Positions 1,209 through 60,179 of a stretch of DNA of 64,000 nt are shown piece by piece. Location: assembly GCA_963820625.1 (NCBI GenBank), contig CAWGAV010000020.1, forward strand, positions 138 through 64,137, read 5' to 3'. The translations under genes and the position numbers were made by a program. The notes under the pieces are model-generated. The model was not told where the DNA came from and searched no databases. It saw only the letters and a program-made list of their open reading frames with translations. The stretch is from an uncultured delta proteobacterium (GTDB taxonomy: Bacteria; Desulfobacterota; BSN033; UBA1163). Position 1 is the stretch's first letter. Each line of letters begins with the position of its first letter.

Positions 1209-1237
1209 TTGACAACTAAACAAATGTATAGTATCTA
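1209..1237 (+). promoter_or_regulatory. sigma70-like promoter of lexA-1 (TTGACA-17 nt-TATCTA), with candidate LexA operator CTAAACAAATGTATAG (1216-1231) in the spacer
   Basis: Hexamers read directly. The 16-nt imperfect palindrome shares the core ACAAATGTA with the palindrome at the lexA-2 promoter. Confidence 0.4.
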
Positions 1238-1401: not shown

Positions 1402-2073
1402 GTGACTATGGAACTGACATCCCGGCAGAAAGAGATCTTCAACTTCATCAAGGTATTTATCAAAGAGAGAGGTTATCCTCCTTCTGTAAGGGAGATCGGC
1501 GAGCACTTCAATATCTATCCCCGGGCAGCCTTCGACCACCTTAAGGCATTGGAGAAAAAAGGTTATTTGAAGCGGAGGGGTTCGATGTCCAGAGGTCTCG
1601 AGATCCTCGTCTTTCAAGGGTATGAATCGCATGGTTCATACCAGCGGGCCGGACCATATGGGGAACATCTAAAGAAAGAGGGGAGGCTATTGATCCGAGA
1701 GATTCCAGTCTTAGGTAGGGTGGCAGCAGGAAAACCCACCTTAGCTGTGGAACATGTGGAAGGGACGATTCCGCTTCCTACGGAATGGGTGAAAGGGAAA
1801 GAGGTCTTCCTTCTGAAGGTGAAGGGCGACAGTATGTCACCTTATATCCTTCCTGATGACTATGTCATCGTTCGGTCTCAACCCTCGGCAGAGAATGGGG
1901 ATGTGGTGGTGACCCTGGTGGGTGAAGAGGCAACGGTGAAACGGTTTTTCAAAAAGGGGAGGAGAATCGAATTGAAACCAGACAACGAGCGCTGGGAGAC
2001 GATTCAGATTGAGGAGGGGGCAGGAGAAGTTCAAATCCTTGGAAAAGTGATCGGGGTGTTTAGGAAAATTTAA
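1402..2073 (+). CDS. lexA: LexA repressor (paralog 1)
   Basis: N-terminal winged HTH (GYPPSVREIGEHF), Ala-Gly cleavage site (RVAAGKP), and S24 peptidase Ser/Lys (KGDSM ... VKRF). Confidence 0.9.
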   Translation: MTMELTSRQKEIFNFIKVFIKERGYPPSVREIGEHFNIYPRAAFDHLKALEKKGYLKRRGSMSRGLEILVFQGYESHGSYQRAGPYGEHLKKEGRLLIREIPVLGRVAAGKPTLAVEHVEGTIPLPTEWVKGKEVFLLKVKGDSMSPYILPDDYVIVRSQPSAENGDVVVTLVGEEATVKRFFKKGRRIELKPDNERWETIQIEEGAGEVQILGKVIGVFRKI

Positions 2074-2308: not shown

Positions 2309-3007
2309 ATGCATTACCCCATAAAACACTCATTCGATGAAATTTTGCTGCAACTGACACAGGTCGGTCTACCTGCTCAACCTATCTCTCTGAGAAAAGT
2401 TCTTTTTTGGGGAGAGAGGGCAGGAGAAATTTCGTCCTATGTGGCGGGATGGTTGGCAGCCAAAGGGATAGAGGTCATCGTATTGGATGGGGCCAATCGT
2501 TTCGATCCTTACATGGTCTCATCTTTCGCAAGAAAGGCATTGATCCCTCCAGAAAGACTTCTCAAAAGAATTCGAATCGCAAGGGCCTTCACTTGCTATC
2601 AGATGGCCATCATGGTCGGGGAGAAATTACACTCCTTGCTCAGTCAGGAGGGAGCGACCCGCCAATCGGAAAACCGATGGGTCATCCTTTTAGGACCGGT
2701 CACCCCGTTTATGGACGAGGATGTATCGGAAAGAGAGGTTCGACCTCTCTTCGAAAGATCTCTGAAAAAGATAGAAGAGATGGTTTTAGGGGGAATTCCT
2801 TTTCTTCTATTCCAACCTTCTGGCTCCTCTGACTCAAAGCGAGCCTATCTTACGAGAAGGCTCTTCCAGTTTTCTAATCTGATCTGGAGGATATCTCTGG
2901 AGGACCAGGAACCACGAGTTGTTCTGGAGAAGGGATTAACAAAATCGCAGATTGCAGATAGCAGATTGAAAAATCCCTGCCTTGACGATTCTGTCATTCC
3001 CGTGTAA
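2309..3007 (+). CDS. ImuA-like / degenerate RecA-fold protein (putative)
   Basis: 232 aa. Alternating strand/helix pattern with a degenerate Walker-A position (WGERAGEISSY) and a Walker-B-like IEVIVLDGANRFDP. Lies between lexA and polB. The last residues (DDSVIPV) come from a REP element. Confidence 0.45.
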   Translation: MHYPIKHSFDEILLQLTQVGLPAQPISLRKVLFWGERAGEISSYVAGWLAAKGIEVIVLDGANRFDPYMVSSFARKALIPPERLLKRIRIARAFTCYQMAIMVGEKLHSLLSQEGATRQSENRWVILLGPVTPFMDEDVSEREVRPLFERSLKKIEEMVLGGIPFLLFQPSGSSDSKRAYLTRRLFQFSNLIWRISLEDQEPRVVLEKGLTKSQIADSRLKNPCLDDSVIPV

Positions 3008-3068
3008 ATGGGAATCTAGATATGAATATTATAAAAAAATATGGATTCCTGCTTCTGCAGGAATGACA
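2994..3068 (+). repeat. REP-like double-hairpin element, copy 2
   Basis: tcattcccgtgtaaatgggaat...ggattcctgcttctgcaggaatgaca. Same family as 2176-2247 and overlaps the stop codon of the preceding ORF. Confidence 0.75.
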
Positions 3069-3178
3069 GAAGAGGCAGGATAAAGAGATCTCGTCGGTAG
3101 TAAATCCGACATTACATTTCTGTCGGAAGATAGAAAAATTTTGCAATTTTCAATTTAAAATTTGCATTTTGCATTGGA

Positions 3179-3445
3179 GTGCCAATGGGAAGAACGGTTC
3201 TTCCTTTTAGCAGGGTTCTGGAACAGGAAGTCCAGGAGTGGAGGAAGTTTCGGAGAGGCCTGAGAAAAGAAGATCAGCAGTTTCTCGACCGGCTCTTTGA
3301 AGAGGCAAGACTTCATGTGCAAGCTGGAGTCTATGCTTCAAGACCCTGGCCTTTTGAGACGATTCTGATCTCTATTCTTCTCGAGCACGAGAAGACTTTG
3401 GTCGATTTGAGATCGAAACTGAGGATATTAGAGGAGAAGGAGTAG
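3179..3445 (+). CDS. hypothetical 88-aa protein in the lexA-polB cassette
   Basis: ORF only, same strand and between cassette genes. No motif recognised. Confidence 0.45.
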   Translation: MPMGRTVLPFSRVLEQEVQEWRKFRRGLRKEDQQFLDRLFEEARLHVQAGVYASRPWPFETILISILLEHEKTLVDLRSKLRILEEKE

Positions 3446-3468
3446 CCGTACCAATTGATACCCTTCTT

Positions 3469-3543
3469 GTCATTCTGAGCGATAGCGAAGAATCTATTGA
3501 CCTCCTGTGAGATTCTTCGTCGCCTATTGCTCCTCAGAATGAC
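3469..3543. repeat. REP-like inverted repeat (gtcattctgagcgatagcgaagaatc ... gattcttcg...cctcagaatgac)
   Basis: Arms read directly. A half copy lies at about 59222-59255. It inflates the 5' end of tracked ORF 3497..5836. Confidence 0.7.
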
Positions 3544-3580
3544 AGTGGGGAGAATCGCTCAATTTAACGGGGAAAAACCC

Positions 3581-5836
3581 ATGGAGATCAGAGGACAGCT
3601 CTTTGATCTTTATCCTCTGGAGTCTTCGATGATCCTGTGGATCAAGGAAGAGGATGGAAGGCTTCGCCGATTCGAAGATCTTTTCAGGCCTCGATTCTAT
3701 ACGCGGGGGAAAAAAAGTGATCTTTTCGATCTCTTCCACTCTCTTCAGAAAGGGCGGCGGGCAGCAGGATACCAGTGGACCAGAAAGAAGGAGCTCTGGA
3801 GTGGCGATGAAGTGGAAGTGATGGAGATCGAGGTTGTAGATTCGGAGCATTATGCCCAACTTCCCCGAATTCTCCCCCAATGGGAGGAGAAGATTACCTT
3901 TTACAATTGCGACATTCCTTTGCCACAGACCTATCTTTATGAAAGAAAAATCTTTCCGACAGGCCGATGCATTGTCGAGGTTGAAGGAAATCGGATCTTT
4001 GAAATTCATCCTGATCCATCCGAGTCTGTGTGGATGAACGATGGAGACATTCCCGACCTCCGGGTCATGGAACTTCACACCAATGGTAACTCTGTGCTTC
4101 TTGGTAGACAGACCCTGAACCGCTCTGGTTCAGGGCTCATACTGAAGTGCGAAGGGTATGGGGTGGAGATGGAGACGATCGATGTTGGAGAAATTGAGAA
4201 GTTTCTCAAACGTTTCGATCCTGATGTGATCCTGAGCGATGATGGGGATGCCTCTCTTTTACCCCTTCTCTTTTCGGCAGAGAAGAGATGGAAGACTTCC
4301 ATCTCCTGGGATCGGGAGCCTTACCCTGTGAAAAGGCAGGTTCATCCGAAAGGTTTTTCTTACTTCTCCTATGGCAGGACCTACTATCGGGCCCCTGCCC
4401 ATATTTTTCTGGGAAGATGGCACATCGATCGTAGAAACTCCTTCATCTATGGAGAATCGGGAATGGAAGGAGTGATCGAACTGGCACGATTGGCTAAAAT
4501 TCCAGTTCAACGGATGGCTCGGACTTCACCAGGAACAGCGATCACCTCGATGCAACTCGACCGGGCCTTTCAGGATGATATCCTCATCCCCTGGAGAAAG
4601 GGGGAACCGGAACGATTCAAGACGGCGTGGGATCTGCTCATTGCGGACAAGGGAGGTCTTGTCTTCCAACCTAAGCTGGGGATCTTTGAAGATGTAGCAG
4701 AGATTGATTTTGCCTCGATGTATCCTACCATGATGGCGATTCACAATATCTCTCCGGAGACCGTACTTTGTGGATGTTGTGAGAACCATAGGGTTCCGGA
4801 GGCTGGTTATACAATCTGTGAAAGACGAAAGGGAATCGTACCTAGAACCCTTAGTCCTATCTTAACGAGAAGAACTTGGCTCAAGAAAATGGCCAAGGAA
4901 GGAGATCCAGATAGAAGAGAAATCTGCAACCGGAAACAGACGGCACTCAAATGGATGCTCGTTACATCCTTTGGATATTTAGGTTATCGGAATGCTCGCT
5001 TTGGAAGAATCGAAGCCCATGAAGCGGTCACTGCCTTTGGGAGGGAAAGCCTCCTTCAAGCCAAGGAGATCTGTGAGGCGGAAGGGTTCGAACTTCTCCA
5101 TGCCATTACCGATTCCCTCTGGATTCGCAAGAAAGGATTCAGAGAGGAAGAGGTTCTTAATCTCTGCGAGAAGATCAGCAAGGCCACAGGGATCACGATG
5201 AGTCTGGAGGGAATTTATCGATGGATGGCTTTTCTCCCCTCAAAAGGGAACCCAGAAAGCCCGGTGGCCAACCGTTATTTCGGACTCTTCCAAAACGGAA
5301 AGATTAAAGCGAGGGGGTTATCCTTTCGGCGAGGCGATATGCCTCCTTTGATTCAAGAGGCTCAGGTTCGAATGATAGGGGTTTTGACAGGGACAAAGAA
5401 TATGGAGGATTTCCGGTCGAAGATCCCTGAGATTTTAGACCTTCTCCTCGAATATAGCCTGAAGTTGAAGGACGGCCAGACGAGGCAAGAGGATTTGGCT
5501 ATCGGGAAGAGAATTTCTCGGGAGCCTAATGCCTATAAAGTGGATAGCCTCACTGCTCTCGCCGCCCAACAGTTGGAAGATGTTGGAATCGAGATCCATC
5601 CCGGAGAGAAGGTTCGGTATGTGATCAAGGATGCCGAATCCAGGGATAAGGCGGAGCGAGTCAGGCCTTTCCCTTTAGTGGGGCCGGATGACACCTACGA
5701 TGTCAAAAAATATCTGGAGATGCTCGTGAAAGCAACCGAGGAGATATTGATCCATGTTGGCTATGATGCAAAACGCCTGTACCCCTTACTCTCCCTCTCC
5801 CCTGAGCGGGAGAGAGGAAGGGTGAGGGAAACTTGA
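3581..5836 (+). CDS. polB: family-B DNA polymerase, archaeal-PolB-like, exonuclease motifs degenerate
   Basis: Motif A is DFASMYPTMMAIHNISPET, motif B is KWMLVTSFGYLGYRNARFG, motif C is LLHAITDSL, and the KxY-like motif is ANRYFGL. Exo I position reads VMELHT (no DxE). Exo II reads DDGDASLL (no NxxxFD). Start moved to ATG 3581 (MEIRGQLFDL) because 3497-3580 is a REP element. The C-terminal tail (LSPERERGRVRET) is REP-derived. Confidence 0.85.
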   Translation: MEIRGQLFDLYPLESSMILWIKEEDGRLRRFEDLFRPRFYTRGKKSDLFDLFHSLQKGRRAAGYQWTRKKELWSGDEVEVMEIEVVDSEHYAQLPRILPQWEEKITFYNCDIPLPQTYLYERKIFPTGRCIVEVEGNRIFEIHPDPSESVWMNDGDIPDLRVMELHTNGNSVLLGRQTLNRSGSGLILKCEGYGVEMETIDVGEIEKFLKRFDPDVILSDDGDASLLPLLFSAEKRWKTSISWDREPYPVKRQVHPKGFSYFSYGRTYYRAPAHIFLGRWHIDRRNSFIYGESGMEGVIELARLAKIPVQRMARTSPGTAITSMQLDRAFQDDILIPWRKGEPERFKTAWDLLIADKGGLVFQPKLGIFEDVAEIDFASMYPTMMAIHNISPETVLCGCCENHRVPEAGYTICERRKGIVPRTLSPILTRRTWLKKMAKEGDPDRREICNRKQTALKWMLVTSFGYLGYRNARFGRIEAHEAVTAFGRESLLQAKEICEAEGFELLHAITDSLWIRKKGFREEEVLNLCEKISKATGITMSLEGIYRWMAFLPSKGNPESPVANRYFGLFQNGKIKARGLSFRRGDMPPLIQEAQVRMIGVLTGTKNMEDFRSKIPEILDLLLEYSLKLKDGQTRQEDLAIGKRISREPNAYKVDSLTALAAQQLEDVGIEIHPGEKVRYVIKDAESRDKAERVRPFPLVGPDDTYDVKKYLEMLVKATEEILIHVGYDAKRLYPLLSLSPERERGRVRET

Positions 5837-15995: not shown

Positions 15996-16042
15996 TTGAC
16001 AGCGAAAAGAATTGAAGATATAAATAGTCTACAAATGTAGAC
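15996..16042 (+). promoter_or_regulatory. sigma70-like promoter of lexA-2 (TTGACA-17 nt-TATAAA), followed by perfect palindrome GTCTACAAATGTAGAC (16027-16042), a candidate LexA operator
   Basis: Hexamers and the 7-2-7 palindrome were read directly. The palindrome sits just 3' of the -10 element. Confidence 0.5.
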
Positions 16043-16096
16043 CTCTAATAAAGAGGCTCAAAGTTCAAAGCTCAAAGGGGGAAAAAGGAAAATAAA

Positions 16097-16723
16097 ATGG
16101 AAGACAAAAAAGAACTGACTTCAACTCAACAGAGAGTCTTTGATTTTTTGAAGGATTATCTTCGGGAAAAAGGGTTTCCGCCAACGCTTCGTGAAATTGC
16201 TTCTCACTTTGGATTAAAAGGGCCTAAGGCGCCACAAAAAACCCTGAGCATCCTTGAGAGGAAGGGGTACATCCGTAAAGTCCCGGGAGGTTCGAGGGCG
16301 ATTGAAATTTTAAGCTACCCACAGTTCAGTCTTACCCAAATACTTCCAATCCCCATTGTAGGAAGAGTGAAAGCAGGTGAACCCATTCTCGCCATCGAGA
16401 ATATCGAGGGTTACATTAACTTCGATCGGACTCTTGTCTCTTCAGGGGATGTCTTTCTCCTTCGGGTCCAGGGAGAGAGCATGATCGATGCTCACATTCA
16501 GGACGGAGATTTTGCCCTGGTGAAGCCGCAGCCCAATGCAGAAAACGGTGAGATTGTCGTGGCCTTGATCGAAGATGAGGCAACGATCAAGAGGATCTTT
16601 AAAAAGAGGGACTTAATTCGGCTTGAACCAGCCAATCCCAAGATGGAACCCATTGTCGTCAAAAAAGGAGAGAAAAAGGTCATCATTGTTGGAAAGGTAA
16701 TCGGGATTTTTAGAAAACTTTAA
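16097..16723 (+). CDS. lexA: LexA repressor (paralog 2)
   Basis: GFPPTLREIASHF HTH, Ala-Gly site (RVKAGEP), QGESM serine and IKRIF lysine. Confidence 0.9.
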   Translation: MEDKKELTSTQQRVFDFLKDYLREKGFPPTLREIASHFGLKGPKAPQKTLSILERKGYIRKVPGGSRAIEILSYPQFSLTQILPIPIVGRVKAGEPILAIENIEGYINFDRTLVSSGDVFLLRVQGESMIDAHIQDGDFALVKPQPNAENGEIVVALIEDEATIKRIFKKRDLIRLEPANPKMEPIVVKKGEKKVIIVGKVIGIFRKL

Positions 16724-16812: not shown

Positions 16813-17979
16813 ATGTGCAATTCTATGGACGATCGAATTATACTTCATATAGACATGGATGCTTTTTTTATTTCGGTGGAACAGAGGGATAATCCCGCAC
16901 TAATGGGAAAACCTGCGGCGGTTTGTGGCTCTCTTTCCCGAAGTGTGGTCACTTCAGCCACCTATGAGGCAAGGCCTTTTGGAATTCGAGCAGGGATGTC
17001 GACCCAGGAGGCAAAAGGGCGTTGTCCCCAGTTGATTCTTGTGGAGGGGAACCATTCGAAATATACGGAAACCGCAGCCCGAATTTTTTCTATTCTGAAA
17101 GGACAGACGCCCCTGGTGGAGATCGCCTCCATTGACGAGGCCTATCTCGATATCACCCAATCCCTGCTCCTCTTCCATTCTCCTCTCCTCATTGCCCAAT
17201 CGATCAAAGAACGAATTGGGGGAAGTGAACAATTGACCTGTTCCATCGGAGTGGCTCCGAATAAACTTCTTGCCAAGTTGGGAAGTCGTCTAAAAAAACC
17301 TGATGGTTTGGTGATAATTCCAAAAGAGGAGGTGGAGGAGATATTAAAGGATCTTCCCGTATCGAAACTCAATGGGATTGGTCCAAAGCTTGGAGAGGCG
17401 TTAAATTCGATAAGCATATTTACTTGTGGACAATTGGGAAAGTTTCCGGTTTCTGTTTTAACCAAAAGGTTTGGTGTCATCGGCGAGAGACTCCACGAGA
17501 TGGGTTTGGGATGGGAAGATAGTCCGGTCGTACCTTTTGATGAGGAGGAGGATACCAAATCAATGAGCCACAGCGTCACCCTCGAAGAGGATACCTCTGA
17601 CCCAAATATCCTGAGAAAAGTTTTGCTTCAACTTTCCGAAAAGGTTTCCAGAAGGATGAGGAGGGAAAAGTTCTATGGGAAGAGGATTGCCATTACGGTC
17701 CGTTATTCAGATTTTTTTACCTTCTCAAAACAAAGGACCCTTTCTAAATGGATGAATAGCGGTAATGAAATATTTCAACACGCCTTTGAGATTTTTGAAT
17801 CGATTCCCCATCCAAAACCAATTCGTCTCCTCGGAGTGGGGATTTCTCAATTGAAAAAAGAGTGGTGCCAGTTGGATCTTTTTGAAAGGAAGGATAAAAA
17901 GGAAACCCTTCTCAAAGCAATGGATCGAATCAATGAACGATTCGGAGATTGGACCTTAACCTGGGCAGGGCTTTATTGA
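16813..17979 (+). CDS. dinB: DNA polymerase IV (Y-family)
   Basis: ILHIDMDAFFISVEQRDNP...SIDEAYLDIT...GVAPNKLLAKL...LNGIGPK. Likely start at Met 16825. Confidence 0.9.
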   Translation: MCNSMDDRIILHIDMDAFFISVEQRDNPALMGKPAAVCGSLSRSVVTSATYEARPFGIRAGMSTQEAKGRCPQLILVEGNHSKYTETAARIFSILKGQTPLVEIASIDEAYLDITQSLLLFHSPLLIAQSIKERIGGSEQLTCSIGVAPNKLLAKLGSRLKKPDGLVIIPKEEVEEILKDLPVSKLNGIGPKLGEALNSISIFTCGQLGKFPVSVLTKRFGVIGERLHEMGLGWEDSPVVPFDEEEDTKSMSHSVTLEEDTSDPNILRKVLLQLSEKVSRRMRREKFYGKRIAITVRYSDFFTFSKQRTLSKWMNSGNEIFQHAFEIFESIPHPKPIRLLGVGISQLKKEWCQLDLFERKDKKETLLKAMDRINERFGDWTLTWAGLY

Positions 17980-59129: not shown

Positions 59130-59413
59130 ACTCCACCATTAAACAAAGCAAAGAGCATAGCGCTTAGCGCATAGCGAAAAAGATACCCGATAGATTTACA
59201 GGGTGATGAAATAACCTATCTTATCGTTATTCTGAGTAAGGCGAAGAATCTCAACTACTAAAATATCTGGGTTTTACGGTTTTAAAACCAGACTGACTTC
59301 CTGGAATTTGTCATCTCTCATCTCGCAAAATACAAGACCTTTAAATGGGTGACCCTCTCAGCACCTTGAACTCATCCTAAAATCGTCATCAAAAGTATCA
59401 AATTTCGGGTCAG

Positions 59414-60179
59414 CTACATTTGTTTGAAGAGATGAAGGTAGTTGCGGCTTACGGTGAGAAGCTCCGGTCTCTCTTTAAGTTTCAATATTCCCCGTCCTGT
59501 GAGTGAACGACTCACTTTGTCTATCTTGGAAACATTCACGATGGTTCCCCGGTGTATCTGCCAGAATTGACTGGGATCGAGTTCCTGGGCCAATTCTTTA
59601 ATGCTCTTTTTAATAAGGGACTCCCCTTCTTTCGTTATGACCAGAGTGTATTTATCTTCGGCCTTGAAGTAGTCTGCCTCCTCCACGGGTATGAGACGGA
59701 TACTATCTTTATTTTGCGTTTTAATCCAACGGAGGAAATCAGACTCCCCCTCTACCCGGTAACTTGGAAAGGACCTGCTCTACAACCTCAGCCAATCTTG
59801 CAGGTGGTTCAGTGGAAGAATTCAATTGGTTCTTGAGGCGTTGAACGGTCTGAATGAGTCTCTCTTTTGATACAGGTTTGAGGAGATAATCAACCGCCTC
59901 CTTCTCAAAAGCTTCTACCGCATACTGATCGAAGGCAGTGACAAATACGATACGACAGAGACCTGCGATTCTTTTTGCCACCTCCATGCCTGAAAGACCG
60001 GGCATTCTGATATCAAGGAAGGCGATCTGCGGCCGCTTTGATTCCACTAATTCAAGGGTTTCTTTTCCATTTTTGGCCTCGCCGCAAATGATGAGCTCCG
60101 GCCAAATCTCTGACAAAATGGATTTGAGGTAGGTCCTCAACTCTTTTTCATCATCAGCCATGATGGCTTTGTAAATCAT
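59414..60179 (-). pseudogene. LytR/AlgR-family response regulator (REC + LytTR) interrupted by one frameshift at a G5 run (about 59745)
   Basis: REC domain: IMADDEKELR...FLDIRMPGLSG...LLKP. The shifted frame gives ESDFLRWIKTQNKDSIRLIPVEEADYFKAEDKYTLV...IHRGTIVN...VSRNY. Length mod 3 = 1. Confidence 0.85.

What the first reader, a model, noticed from the sequence alone, without database searches (positions are those of the whole stretch)
16027..16042. Candidate LexA operator: ACAAATGT-centred 16-bp palindrome at both lexA promoters
GTCTACAAATGTAGAC (16027-16042) is a perfect 7-2-7 palindrome lying 2 nt after the TATAAA -10 element of lexA-2. CTAAACAAATGTATAG (1216-1231) is 12/16 symmetric and lies inside the 17-nt spacer of the lexA-1 promoter (TTGACA...TATCTA). 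The two sites share the core ACAAATGTA. This does not match the LexA boxes I know: CTGT-N8-ACAG, GAAC-N4-GTTC, GTTC-N7-GTTC, or the cyanobacterial, Geobacter and Bdellovibrio types. It may therefore be a lineage-specific SOS box. With only two sites seen, the motif is tentative.
Basis: partly seen in the sequence, partly recalled or inferred. Interest (0 to 1): 0.6.

Follow-up and report, generated by a model that had tools for sequence, protein, structure and literature searches.

The report
Variant LexA operators, two lexA promoters
Both palindromes are very probably the sites where this uncultured Syntrophaceae-type bacterium's two DNA-damage repressors (LexA) shut off their own operons, each of which encodes an error-prone DNA polymerase; the sequence is a lineage-specific variant of the well-known Gram-positive/cyanobacterial LexA box, not a new kind of box.

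Summary
GTCTACAAATGTAGAC (16027-16042) lies 2 nt after the -10 of lexA-2. CTAAACAAATGTATAG (1216-1231) fills the -35/-10 spacer of lexA-1.

A 7-2-7 palindrome alone is weak evidence, because the window holds 10 of them. The case rests on conservation. Every lexA-2 orthologue examined in the family keeps GT[C/A][T/A]AC-N4-GT[A/T][G/T]AC at the same promoter position, with diverged flanks. Every lexA-1 orthologue keeps an invariant 27-nt block, CTTGACAACTAAACAAATGTATAGTAT.

More distant LexA homologues carry classic GAAC-N4-GTTC boxes at the same promoter positions: anammox Planctomycetes have GTGAAC-N4-GTTCAC and Chloroflexi have TCGAAC-N4-GTTC. Published cyanobacterial lexA boxes (GGTACAAATGTATT) share the TACAAATGTA core. 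So this is a diverged Cheo/cyanobacterial-type box, not an unrelated type.

The recognition helix changes along with the half-site. The lexA-2-dinB and lexA-1-PolB2 gene orders are conserved.

No site precedes recA, uvrA or recN in about 30 related genomes each. The circuit therefore looks like self-repressed polymerase operons, as in Geobacter, rather than a broad SOS regulon.

LexA binding is inferred, not shown. This scan has already noted GTATAC-N4-GTATAC LexA-box variants on other DNA.

The parts
15996..16001 (+). -35 hexamer TTGACA of the lexA-2/dinB promoter
   Evidence: Read from the sequence. CTTGACA is conserved in the orthologous promoters.
16019..16024 (+). -10 hexamer TATAAA, 17 nt after the -35
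   Evidence: Read from the sequence. TATAAA/TATAAT-like hexamers are conserved at a fixed distance from the operator. The consensus scanner did not flag it because it requires T at position 6.
16027..16042 (.). lexA-2 operator GTCTAC-AAAT-GTAGAC, overlapping the expected transcription start
   Evidence: Scores 24.2 bits, the best site in the genome. Conserved as GT[C/A][T/A]AC-N4-GT[A/T][G/T]AC in 37 distinct orthologous promoters. Its columns carry the highest information content in the anchored promoter alignment.
16097..16723 (+). lexA-2 (208 aa)
   Evidence: Pfam LexA_DNA_bind plus Peptidase_S24. Aligns over its full length to E. coli LexA structures at E about 1e-42, with the Ala-Gly cleavage site, Ser and Lys retained.
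16813..17979 (+). dinB (Y-family DNA polymerase IV), probably co-transcribed with lexA-2
   Evidence: Pfam IMS, IMS_C and IMS_HHH. It is the only Y-family polymerase in the assembly. The lexA-2 then dinB order is conserved in all family and class-level loci.
1209..1214 (+). -35 hexamer TTGACA of the lexA-1/PolB2-operon promoter
   Evidence: Read from the sequence. It is part of a 27-nt block that is invariant in all family orthologues.
1216..1231 (.). lexA-1 operator CTAAAC-AAAT-GTATAG inside the 17-nt promoter spacer
   Evidence: Scores 17.5 bits, the second-best intergenic site in the genome. Identical in all family lexA-1 promoters. It reads CTAAAC-ATAT-GTATAG in a sister family and GTCAAC-N4-GTATAG in a third family. 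Chloroflexi lexA promoters carry TCGAAC-N4-GTTC in the same register.
1232..1237 (+). putative -10 hexamer TATCTA (weak; TATAAT or TATATT in relatives)
   Evidence: Inferred from the 17-nt spacing and from TATAAT at this position in more distant orthologues.
1408..2073 (+). lexA-1 (221 aa; start taken at the ATG at 1408, as in the orthologues)
   Evidence: Pfam LexA_DNA_bind plus Peptidase_S24. Orthologues start MELTSRQ. VAAG, GDSM and VKR motifs are visible in the sequence.
2309..5836 (+). Genes downstream of lexA-1: ImuA-like protein (2309-3007), 88-aa protein (3179-3445) and family-B polymerase (3497-5836)
   Evidence: Pfam DNA_pol_B for the last gene. The gene order is conserved behind lexA-1 in all family and sister-family loci.

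Best explanation
The two elements are autoregulatory LexA operators of a diverged Gram-positive/cyanobacterial (xxxAC-N4-GTxxx) type.

A LexA dimer bound at GTCTAC-AAAT-GTAGAC covers the transcription start of the lexA-2-dinB operon. A LexA dimer bound at CTAAAC-AAAT-GTATAG sits between the -35 and -10 of the operon made of lexA-1, an ImuA-like gene, an 88-aa gene and PolB2. In both cases the bound dimer excludes RNA polymerase.

After DNA damage, RecA filaments trigger self-cleavage of LexA. Both proteins keep the Ala-Gly site and the Ser/Lys dyad. Both operons are then derepressed, giving a burst of translesion polymerase and of fresh repressor.

Each operator is most likely read mainly by its own paralogue. 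The two clades have different recognition helices (IYPRAAFDHL against KGPKAPQKTL), and each keeps its own outer half-site bases (C...G against G...C).

The circuit appears restricted to these two polymerase operons. recA, uvrA and recN carry no site.

Shown here: the positions, the conservation, homology of position with GAAC-N4-GTTC boxes, helix/half-site covariation, and the absence of sites at recA, uvrA and recN.

Inferred: binding, repression, cleavage, and which paralogue reads which site.
For: 1. Both downstream genes are true lexA.

2. Phylogenetic footprint for lexA-2. All orthologous promoters with a readable upstream region keep the dyad 0-2 nt after the -10, while the flanks are unalignable. 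Protein identity runs from 93% down to 50%. Operator columns are the most informative in the alignment.

3. Phylogenetic footprint for lexA-1. A 27-nt block is invariant in about 20 genera with protein identity down to 70%. The right half-site GTATAG is kept in two further families and in a Desulfarculaceae MAG.

4. Continuity with known boxes.
- Anammox homologues (about 50% identity) have TATATT-AG-GTGAAC-N4-GTTCAC.
- Chloroflexi have CTTGACAATCGAAC-N4-GTTCTGTAC, in the same register as CTTGACAACTAAAC-N4-GTATAGTAT.
- On a FastTree topology the series GTGAAC, then GACAAC / GTATAC, then GTCTAC follows the LexA-2 clade.

5. Published cyanobacterial lexA boxes such as GGTACAAATGTATT share the core.

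6. The helix covaries with the half-site.
- The residue aligned with E. coli Ser39, a DNA-contacting residue (PMC3091678), is Gly where operator base 3/14 is C (26 sites, plus 4 mixed).
- It is Ser where that base is A (5 of 5).
- Several of these rows are the same genome fetched twice.

7. Half-sites vary independently. GTCTAC is found paired with GTATAC or with GTTGAC. This fits two monomers, not base-pairing.

8. The two sites are the top two intergenic hits in the genome.

9. Synteny with dinB and with PolB2 is conserved.
Against: - There is no binding, expression or transcription-start data.
- No sites lie upstream of recA, uvrA or recN, so the usual regulon-level support for an SOS box is missing.
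- The strict patterns are no more frequent in 55 family genomes than reversed-pattern controls, apart from the lexA promoters themselves.
- The genome is only 71% complete.
- Conservation of a promoter-embedded dyad in front of a repressor gene fits LexA best, but it does not formally identify the binding protein.
- The helix/operator covariation involves related lineages, so it amounts to few independent events.
Confidence: 0.82

Rival explanations
1. One LexA is the master. A single paralogue, or both interchangeably, binds both operators, so the two operons form one cross-regulated or hierarchical circuit rather than two insulated ones.
For: - The sites share AC-AAAT-GTA.
- Under a joint matrix the lexA-1 site still scores 17.5 bits against 24.2 for the lexA-2 site.
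- In several genera the lexA-2 operator is GTATAC-N4-GTATAC. Per half-site this differs from the lexA-1 right half, GTATAG, only in the outermost base.
Against: - The outermost bases (G...C against C...G) are essentially fixed within each clade across many genera.
- The recognition helices are very different and each is conserved within its clade.
Confidence: 0.3
2. The palindromes bind some other dimeric regulator, not LexA, which happens to control both lexA operons.
For: No direct evidence identifies the protein. No other SOS gene carries the site.
Against: - At homologous promoter positions, more distant LexA homologues carry bona fide GAAC-N4-GTTC boxes.
- The half-site changes together with the LexA recognition helix.
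- The site always travels with lexA, whatever the upstream neighbour is.
- The assembly encodes only two S24-family proteins, and both are LexA.
Confidence: 0.04
3. The lexA-2 palindrome acts as a nucleic-acid hairpin. It would be either a 5'-terminal stem-loop that stabilises or attenuates the mRNA, or a minus-strand terminator (the scanner flags GGTCTACATTTGTAGACT followed by a T-rich tail).
For: - A terminator-like hit lies on the minus strand.
- A 6-bp stem with a 4-nt loop could form at the 5' end of the transcript.
- Symmetric variants (GTATAC/GTATAC, GTCTAC/GTAGAC) look like compensatory changes.
Against: - Asymmetric combinations that would break pairing are common. These are C/T, A/G, T/T and A/A at positions 3/14 and 4/13, and they make 8 of 31 family operators asymmetric.
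- No minus-strand gene ends there, and the upstream neighbour differs among relatives.
- The lexA-1 element lies in the untranscribed promoter spacer, is imperfect, and is still invariant.
Confidence: 0.03
4. These are chance palindromes in AT-rich promoter DNA.
For: 7-2-7 palindromes are frequent, with 10 in the window. The shared 8-mer is not enriched.
Against: The sites are conserved at fixed promoter positions across dozens of genomes from three families, with diverged flanks.
Confidence: 0.01

Closest known systems
Gram-positive LexA (DinR) box or 'Cheo box', CGAAC-N4-GTTCG (Firmicutes, Actinobacteria, Chloroflexi)
   Same: - Both are 6-4-6 dyads with an invariant AC-N4-GT core and an A/T-rich centre.
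- Both are embedded in the lexA core promoter for autoregulation.
- Homologous LexA genes in anammox Planctomycetes and Chloroflexi carry true GAAC-N4-GTTC boxes in the same promoter register.
- The class-level relatives' CAAC-N4-GTTG is one base per half-site away.
   Different: - The defining GAAC/GTTC tetranucleotides are replaced by CTAC/GTAG or ATAC/GTAT at lexA-2, and by AAAC/GTAT at lexA-1.
- Extra conserved outer bases are present (GT...AC or CT...AG).
- The recognition helix is different (KGPKAPQKTL or IYPRAAFDHL, against LASTSAVHHHL in the Chloroflexi homologues).
Cyanobacterial LexA box RGTAC-N3-DGTWCB / AGTACWNWTGTACT
   Same: - The TAC-N4-GTA core is identical.
- Predicted lexA boxes of marine Prochlorococcus and Synechococcus read GGTACAAATGTATT, which contains the same TACAAATGTA as the lexA-2 site (PMC3091678 Table 1).
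- The most significant dyad is ACAn2TGT (PMC2248561 Table 5).
   Different: - The base before TAC is G in Cyanobacteria (GTAC) but C or A here.
- The cyanobacterial regulon includes recA, ssb and uvrA. Here those promoters, where checked, lack a site.
[quoted passage not shown] 2003, cited in PMC8565304)
   Same: - Deltaproteobacterial lineage.
- Two lexA paralogues, each apparently self-repressed.
- recA lies outside the LexA network.
   Different: - The Geobacter motif is GGTT-N10-AACC (GGTTnnCnnnnGnnnACC), which is unrelated in sequence and spacing.
- Gene neighbourhoods were not compared here, because the paper is not held.
Myxococcus xanthus LexA box CTRHAMRYBYGTTCAGS (listed in PMC2248561 Table 5)
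   Same: The lexA-1 operator CTAAAC-AAAT-GTATAG fits the left half CTRHAM exactly. It shares the CT...AG outer bases and the 6-4-6 layout. By my count 12 of 16 aligned positions fit the consensus.
   Different: - The right half is GTATAG, not GTTCAG.
- The central RYBY is only half met.
- No experimental link exists.
GTATAC-N4-GTATAC LexA-box variants noted by this scan in Patescibacteria and other uncultured lineages (e1-940420, e1-1290711 and others)
   Same: The half-site GTATAC and the spacing match several genera of this family. These variants too were inferred from conservation at lexA, dinB or recA promoters.
   Different: - They are in different phyla.
- Some of those cases include recA in the regulon.
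- Whether the LexA proteins are related or convergent was not tested.

Membership tests
LexA operator (SOS box), generic | Lies in or overlaps the core promoter of a LexA-controlled gene, typically lexA itself | tested here: met
   One site lies 2 nt after the -10 and over the expected start of lexA-2. The other lies inside the -35/-10 spacer of lexA-1.
LexA operator (SOS box), generic | Repeat structure that suits a LexA dimer | tested here: met
   The 6-4-6 dyad is perfect at lexA-2 and matches 5 of 6 per arm at lexA-1. Half-sites vary independently among orthologues.
LexA operator (SOS box), generic | Conserved in front of orthologous genes while the flanks diverge | tested here: met
LexA operator (SOS box), generic | Present upstream of other DNA-damage genes (a regulon) | tested here: not met
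   - Upstream of recA the best score is 2.6 bits in 29 genomes.
- Upstream of uvrA the best score in relatives is 5.3 bits, and the 8.5-bit hit in this genome is not conserved.
- Upstream of recN the best score is 5.7 bits.
- The 95th percentile for random windows is 4.0 bits.
- The only other strong site in the genome lies in a mobile-element region.
LexA operator (SOS box), generic | Bound by purified LexA; the gene is induced by DNA damage in a RecA-dependent way | not testable with these tools
   No culture, protein or transcriptome is available.
Cheo box (GAAC-N4-GTTC) | AC-N4-GT core with a 4-nt, usually A/T-rich, centre | tested here: met
   AC and GT are invariant in 37 of 37 lexA-2 operators and in all lexA-1 operators.
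Cheo box (GAAC-N4-GTTC) | GAAC / GTTC tetranucleotides | tested here: not met
   The tetranucleotides are CTAC/GTAG, ATAC/GTAT and AAAC/GTAT. Only the anammox and Chloroflexi homologues have GAAC/GTTC.
Cheo box (GAAC-N4-GTTC) | Evolutionary continuity with GAAC-N4-GTTC boxes of homologous LexA genes | tested here: met
   The promoter register is the same in the anammox and Chloroflexi homologues. The LexA-2 clade is sister to the GTGAAC-type anammox clade in a FastTree topology; branch supports were not inspected.
Cyanobacterial box RGTAC-N3-DGTWCB | TAC-N4-GTA core | tested here: met
   TACAAATGTA is shared with GGTACAAATGTATT.
Cyanobacterial box RGTAC-N3-DGTWCB | G before TAC and C after GTA (GTAC...GTAC) | tested here: not met
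   The base is C or A before TAC, and G or T after GTA.
Geobacter-type dual autoregulated lexA circuit | Two lexA genes, each with its own operator, and recA not controlled | tested here: met
   There are two lexA genes with distinct conserved operators, and recA has no site. This is a likeness in circuit logic only.
Geobacter-type dual autoregulated lexA circuit | Motif GGTT-N10-AACC | tested here: not met
   The sites do not fit this pattern (motif as listed).

The most novel reading that the evidence does not exclude
The two LexA paralogues have split the damage response into two insulated, self-repressed modules, one for Pol IV and one for the PolB2 'mutasome'. They would be told apart mainly by the outermost operator bases (G...C against C...G).

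The LexA-2 lineage also preserves a stepwise natural series of specificity changes: GAAC, then CAAC / ATAC, then CTAC. These changes are coupled to substitutions at the residue equivalent to E. coli Ser39 and at neighbouring helix positions.

If that holds, the clade is a ready-made system for reading out how LexA changes its DNA recognition code without losing autoregulation.
Probability: 0.35. Interest if true: 0.55.

Novelty: new variant of a known kind. Interest (0 to 1): 0.4.

Why it matters
LexA is the standard example of a regulator whose binding motif has drifted across phyla, and each new variant helps reconstruct how that drift happens.

This case adds three things:
- It gives a candidate operator for uncultured Syntrophaceae-type Deltaproteobacteria (Thermodesulfobacteriota). 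I found no described LexA box for them in the held literature.
- It shows intermediates that link the operator to the GAAC-N4-GTTC box.
- It shows a residue-to-base covariation that can be tested by gel shift.

It also suggests that in this lineage LexA controls only its own gene and two error-prone polymerases, not recA or excision repair. That supports the published view that translesion synthesis is the conserved core of the SOS response (PMC7739468).

The practical value is modest. It allows better annotation of SOS control in these syntrophic bacteria and gives a defined set of sites for experiments.

Tried and rejected
1. Treating ACAAATGT as the motif. It occurs 3 times in the window against 1.8 expected. 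The third copy (59416-59423) scores 1.9 bits and lies at the 3' end of a small ORF. Rejected as the defining unit; the informative unit is the 6-4-6 dyad.

2. Palindromicity as evidence. There are 10 perfect 7-2-7 repeats in the window, so this was rejected.

3. Genome-wide regulon search in this genome with a weight matrix.
- Candidates before uvrA (8.5 bits) and nrdD (9.8 bits) were followed.
- The uvrA hit is not conserved in 29 relatives.
- The nrdD hit was not followed further.

4. Family-wide strict pattern searches in 55 genomes. Beyond one hit per genome at each lexA promoter, counts equal or fall below reversed-pattern controls.

5. Gene-first checks of recA, uvrA and recN in about 30 genomes each. 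No sites were found.

6. Minus-strand terminator reading. Rejected on gene context.

7. Literature.
- No paper on a Syntrophus, Deltaproteobacteria-wide or anammox LexA motif was found in the held library.
- Jara 2003 and the Verrucomicrobia motif paper are not held.
- The Patescibacteria motif paper did not turn up in the held library.

Full report
**What is in the sequence**

The window is contig 20 of a 2.34-Mb, 35-contig, 71%-complete assembly with 45.6% G+C.

Record titles of the closest lexA-bearing contigs name Syntrophaceae, Thermodesulfobacteriota or 'delta proteobacterium' MAGs.

GTCTACAAATGTAGAC lies at 16027-16042. It follows TTGACA (15996-16001), a 17-nt spacer, TATAAA (16019-16024) and two further bases. 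It therefore covers the expected transcription start of the gene at 16097-16723.

CTAAACAAATGTATAG lies at 1216-1231. It fills 16 of the 17 spacer bases between TTGACA (1209-1214) and TATCTA (1232-1237), upstream of the gene at 1408-2073.

Both genes encode LexA_DNA_bind plus Peptidase_S24 proteins. LexA-2 aligns end to end with E. coli LexA structures, and the Ala-Gly site, the Ser and the Lys are retained. LexA-1 shows VAAG, GDSM and VKR in its sequence.

lexA-2 is followed by dinB. lexA-1 is followed by an ImuA-like gene, an 88-aa gene and a family-B polymerase.

**Is it more than chance?**

Not on its face. The 8-mer ACAAATGT occurs three times against 1.8 expected. Perfect 7-2-7 inverted repeats number 10 in the window and 342 in the genome.

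The evidence comes from position and conservation. I built a weight matrix from orthologous sites. With it the two sites score 24.2 and 17.5 bits and are the best two intergenic hits in the whole assembly.

**Phylogenetic footprint**

Whole-genome searches of relatives found lexA-2 orthologues (93% down to 50% identity) and lexA-1 orthologues (94% down to 44%) in most genomes of the family and of two sister families.

Upstream of every lexA-2 orthologue with readable sequence, the dyad sits 0-2 nt after the -10. It reads GTCTAC-AWAT-GTAGAC or GTATAC-ATAT-GTATAC within the family, and GACAAC-ATAT-GTTGAC in the sister family. In an operator-anchored alignment of 27 distinct promoters, the operator columns carry nearly maximal information and the flanks almost none.

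Upstream of every family lexA-1 orthologue, the 27-nt block CTTGACAACTAAACAAATGTATAGTAT is invariant, although leaders and upstream DNA are unalignable. The sister family has CTAAAC-ATAT-GTATAG and a third family has GTCAAC-N4-GTATAG followed by TATAAT.

The gene orders lexA-2 then dinB, and lexA-1 then ImuA-like, p88 and PolB2, are conserved throughout.

**What kind of box it is**

The useful reading is a 6-4-6 dyad with an invariant AC-N4-GT core.

Homologues of LexA-2 in anammox Planctomycetes (about 50% identity) carry TATATT-AG-GTGAAC-N4-GTTCAC. This is a classic GAAC-N4-GTTC box at the same place after the -10.

Chloroflexi lexA promoters read CTTGACAATCGAAC-N4-GTTCTGTAC. That is the same register as CTTGACAACTAAAC-AAAT-GTATAGTAT here.

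In a FastTree topology the LexA-2 clade is sister to the anammox clade. Within the clade, GTATAC-type lineages branch before GTCTAC-type ones. LexA-1 forms a separate clade (branch supports were not inspected).

The published record agrees with this reading:
- The Gram-positive consensus is CGAACRNRYGTTYC. The footprint predicted for cyanobacterial lexA promoters is aggtACAtaTGTacct, with ACAn2TGT as the top dyad (PMC2248561 Table 5).
- The lexA-1 site also fits the left half and outer bases of the Myxococcus consensus CTRHAMRYBYGTTCAGS.

So the motif is a lineage-specific variant inside the Cheo/cyanobacterial family of LexA boxes. It is not a box of a new type.

**Protein and site change together**

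Recognition-helix segments sort with the half-sites:

| Helix segment | Operator | Lineage |
|---|---|---|
| LASTNSVKKYL | GTGAAC | anammox |
| KGPRSPKKRL | GACAAC | sister family |
| KGPKAPQKTL | GTCTAC | this family |
| KSPRGPQKIL | GTATAC | this family |
| SGHSSIQNAL | TGGTAC-N4-GTACCT | a second Brocadiaceae type |
| LASTSAVHHHL | TCGAAC | Chloroflexi |
| IYPRAAFDHL (invariant) | ...AAC-N4-GTATAG | LexA-1 clade |

The residue aligned with E. coli Ser39 was examined separately. This residue is Gly where operator base 3/14 is C (26 sites, plus 4 mixed) and Ser where that base is A (5 of 5). Several of these rows are the same genome fetched twice, and the lineages are related. I therefore treat this as suggestive only.

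**Dimer site, not hairpin**

Among 37 distinct lexA-2 operators, positions 3/14 and 4/13 occur in non-complementary combinations: C/T, A/G, T/T and A/A. Eight of the 31 family operators are asymmetric. This fits two monomers that each accept GT[C/A][T/A]AC. It does not fit selection for base-pairing.

The minus-strand 'terminator' flagged by the scanner has no gene to terminate, and the upstream neighbour differs among relatives.

The lexA-1 site lies in untranscribed spacer DNA.

**Regulon**

It fails.

| Gene | Genomes checked | Best upstream score |
|---|---|---|
| recA | 29 | 2.6 bits (mean -3.9) |
| uvrA | 29 relatives | 5.3 bits; the 8.5-bit hit in this genome is not conserved |
| recN | 29 | 5.7 bits |

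For comparison, the 95th percentile for random 303-nt windows is 4.0 bits.

Strict patterns for either operator type occur about once per genome, at the lexA promoter. Otherwise they are no more frequent than reversed-pattern controls in 55 genomes.

The assembly has one Y-family polymerase and two S24 proteins.

The only other strong site is GTCTACGTTTGTAGAC, which scores 20.7 bits under the joint matrix and lies on contig 10. From base composition I expect about 0.13 copies of GTCTAC-N4-GTAGAC per genome (my arithmetic). This copy lies in a non-coding stretch next to a primase-polymerase gene and a serine recombinase gene, and a second ACAAATGTA core lies 8 nt away. It may be a third LexA-2 target on a mobile element, but I could not find a promoter there.

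The picture is therefore two self-repressed polymerase operons. [quoted passage not shown] It also agrees with the published view that translesion synthesis is the conserved core of SOS networks (PMC7739468).

**Mechanism, and how sure**

I put 0.82 on both elements being LexA operators that repress their own operons by blocking RNA polymerase, with relief by RecA-stimulated self-cleavage.

Which paralogue reads which site is less certain. I favour cognate pairing, because each clade keeps its own outer bases and its own helix. Cross-binding remains possible (about 0.3), since the cores are the same.

Binding, repression and induction are all inferred. No expression data could be reached.

**Novelty**

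I found no description of a LexA box for Syntrophaceae-type bacteria or anammox bacteria in the held literature. The Patescibacteria, Verrucomicrobia and Geobacter papers could not be read.

This scan has already noted GTATAC-N4-GTATAC LexA-box variants in other uncultured lineages and Cheo-type boxes in a planctomycete.

I class this finding as a new variant of a known kind and rate its interest as moderate. The intermediates and the helix/base covariation are the most useful part.

Noticed in passing
L042:1501-1516 (= G000 contig 10, 139590-139605; outside the window): This is a third perfect dyad, GTCTACGTTTGTAGAC, with the same half-sites as the lexA-2 operator. A second ACAAATGTA core (GGACAAATGTAAGG) lies 8 nt away. 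Both sit in a roughly 500-nt non-coding stretch beside genes for a 133-aa secreted or lipoprotein-like protein, an HTH protein, a Prim-Pol/PriCT primase and a serine recombinase. It may be a LexA-controlled mobile element. No clear promoter was seen.
   Followed up: partly
L018, L019, L021-L025 (lexA-2 loci of the sister family): In these genomes the operator GACAACATATGTTGAC contains the lexA-2 start codon (ATG TTG ACC AAA = MLTK) and directly follows a -10-like GATAAAAAG. The mRNA would then be leaderless, with the operator over the start codon.
   Followed up: no
window 16043-16096: The lexA-2 leader carries three tandem CTCAAAG / TTCAAAG units before the ribosome-binding site. Close relatives (L002, L005, L134) have similar TCAAAG/TCAAGG repeats. 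Leaders of recA, recN and lexA-1 in relatives also hold short tandem 7-8-mers such as GTTCGGAGT, CGGACACGG and TAACTCATAA. Their function is unknown.
   Followed up: no
L231-L260 (uvrA loci; G000 contig 25, 39162-41960): The uvrA paralogue of this family is preceded in most genomes by a conserved TGTATTATAAT (an extended -10 type) only about 8-12 nt before the start codon. This suggests a leaderless or very short-leader uvrA. Each genome also has a second UvrA paralogue at about 46% identity.
   Followed up: no
L146-L165 (anammox Planctomycetes lexA loci): The LexA-2 clade of these Deltaproteobacteria is sister to LexA of Scalindua and Brocadia (about 50% identity), not to the cell's other LexA. 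This hints at old horizontal transfer of a lexA(-dinB) module. A second Brocadiaceae LexA type has a cyanobacterial-like TGGTAC-ACTT-GTACCT box.
   Followed up: partly
window 59412-59427: This is the third ACAAATGT copy in the window. It scores only 1.9 bits with the operator matrix and lies at the 3' end of a 90-aa ORF with a LytTR-like C-terminal sequence. It is a chance match.
   Followed up: yes
window 16027-16042: Both half-sites, GTCTAC and GTAGAC, fit GTMKAC, which from my own knowledge is the recognition sequence of the restriction enzyme AccI. This is probably coincidental, but it could be handy for checking operator mutants by digestion.
   Followed up: no
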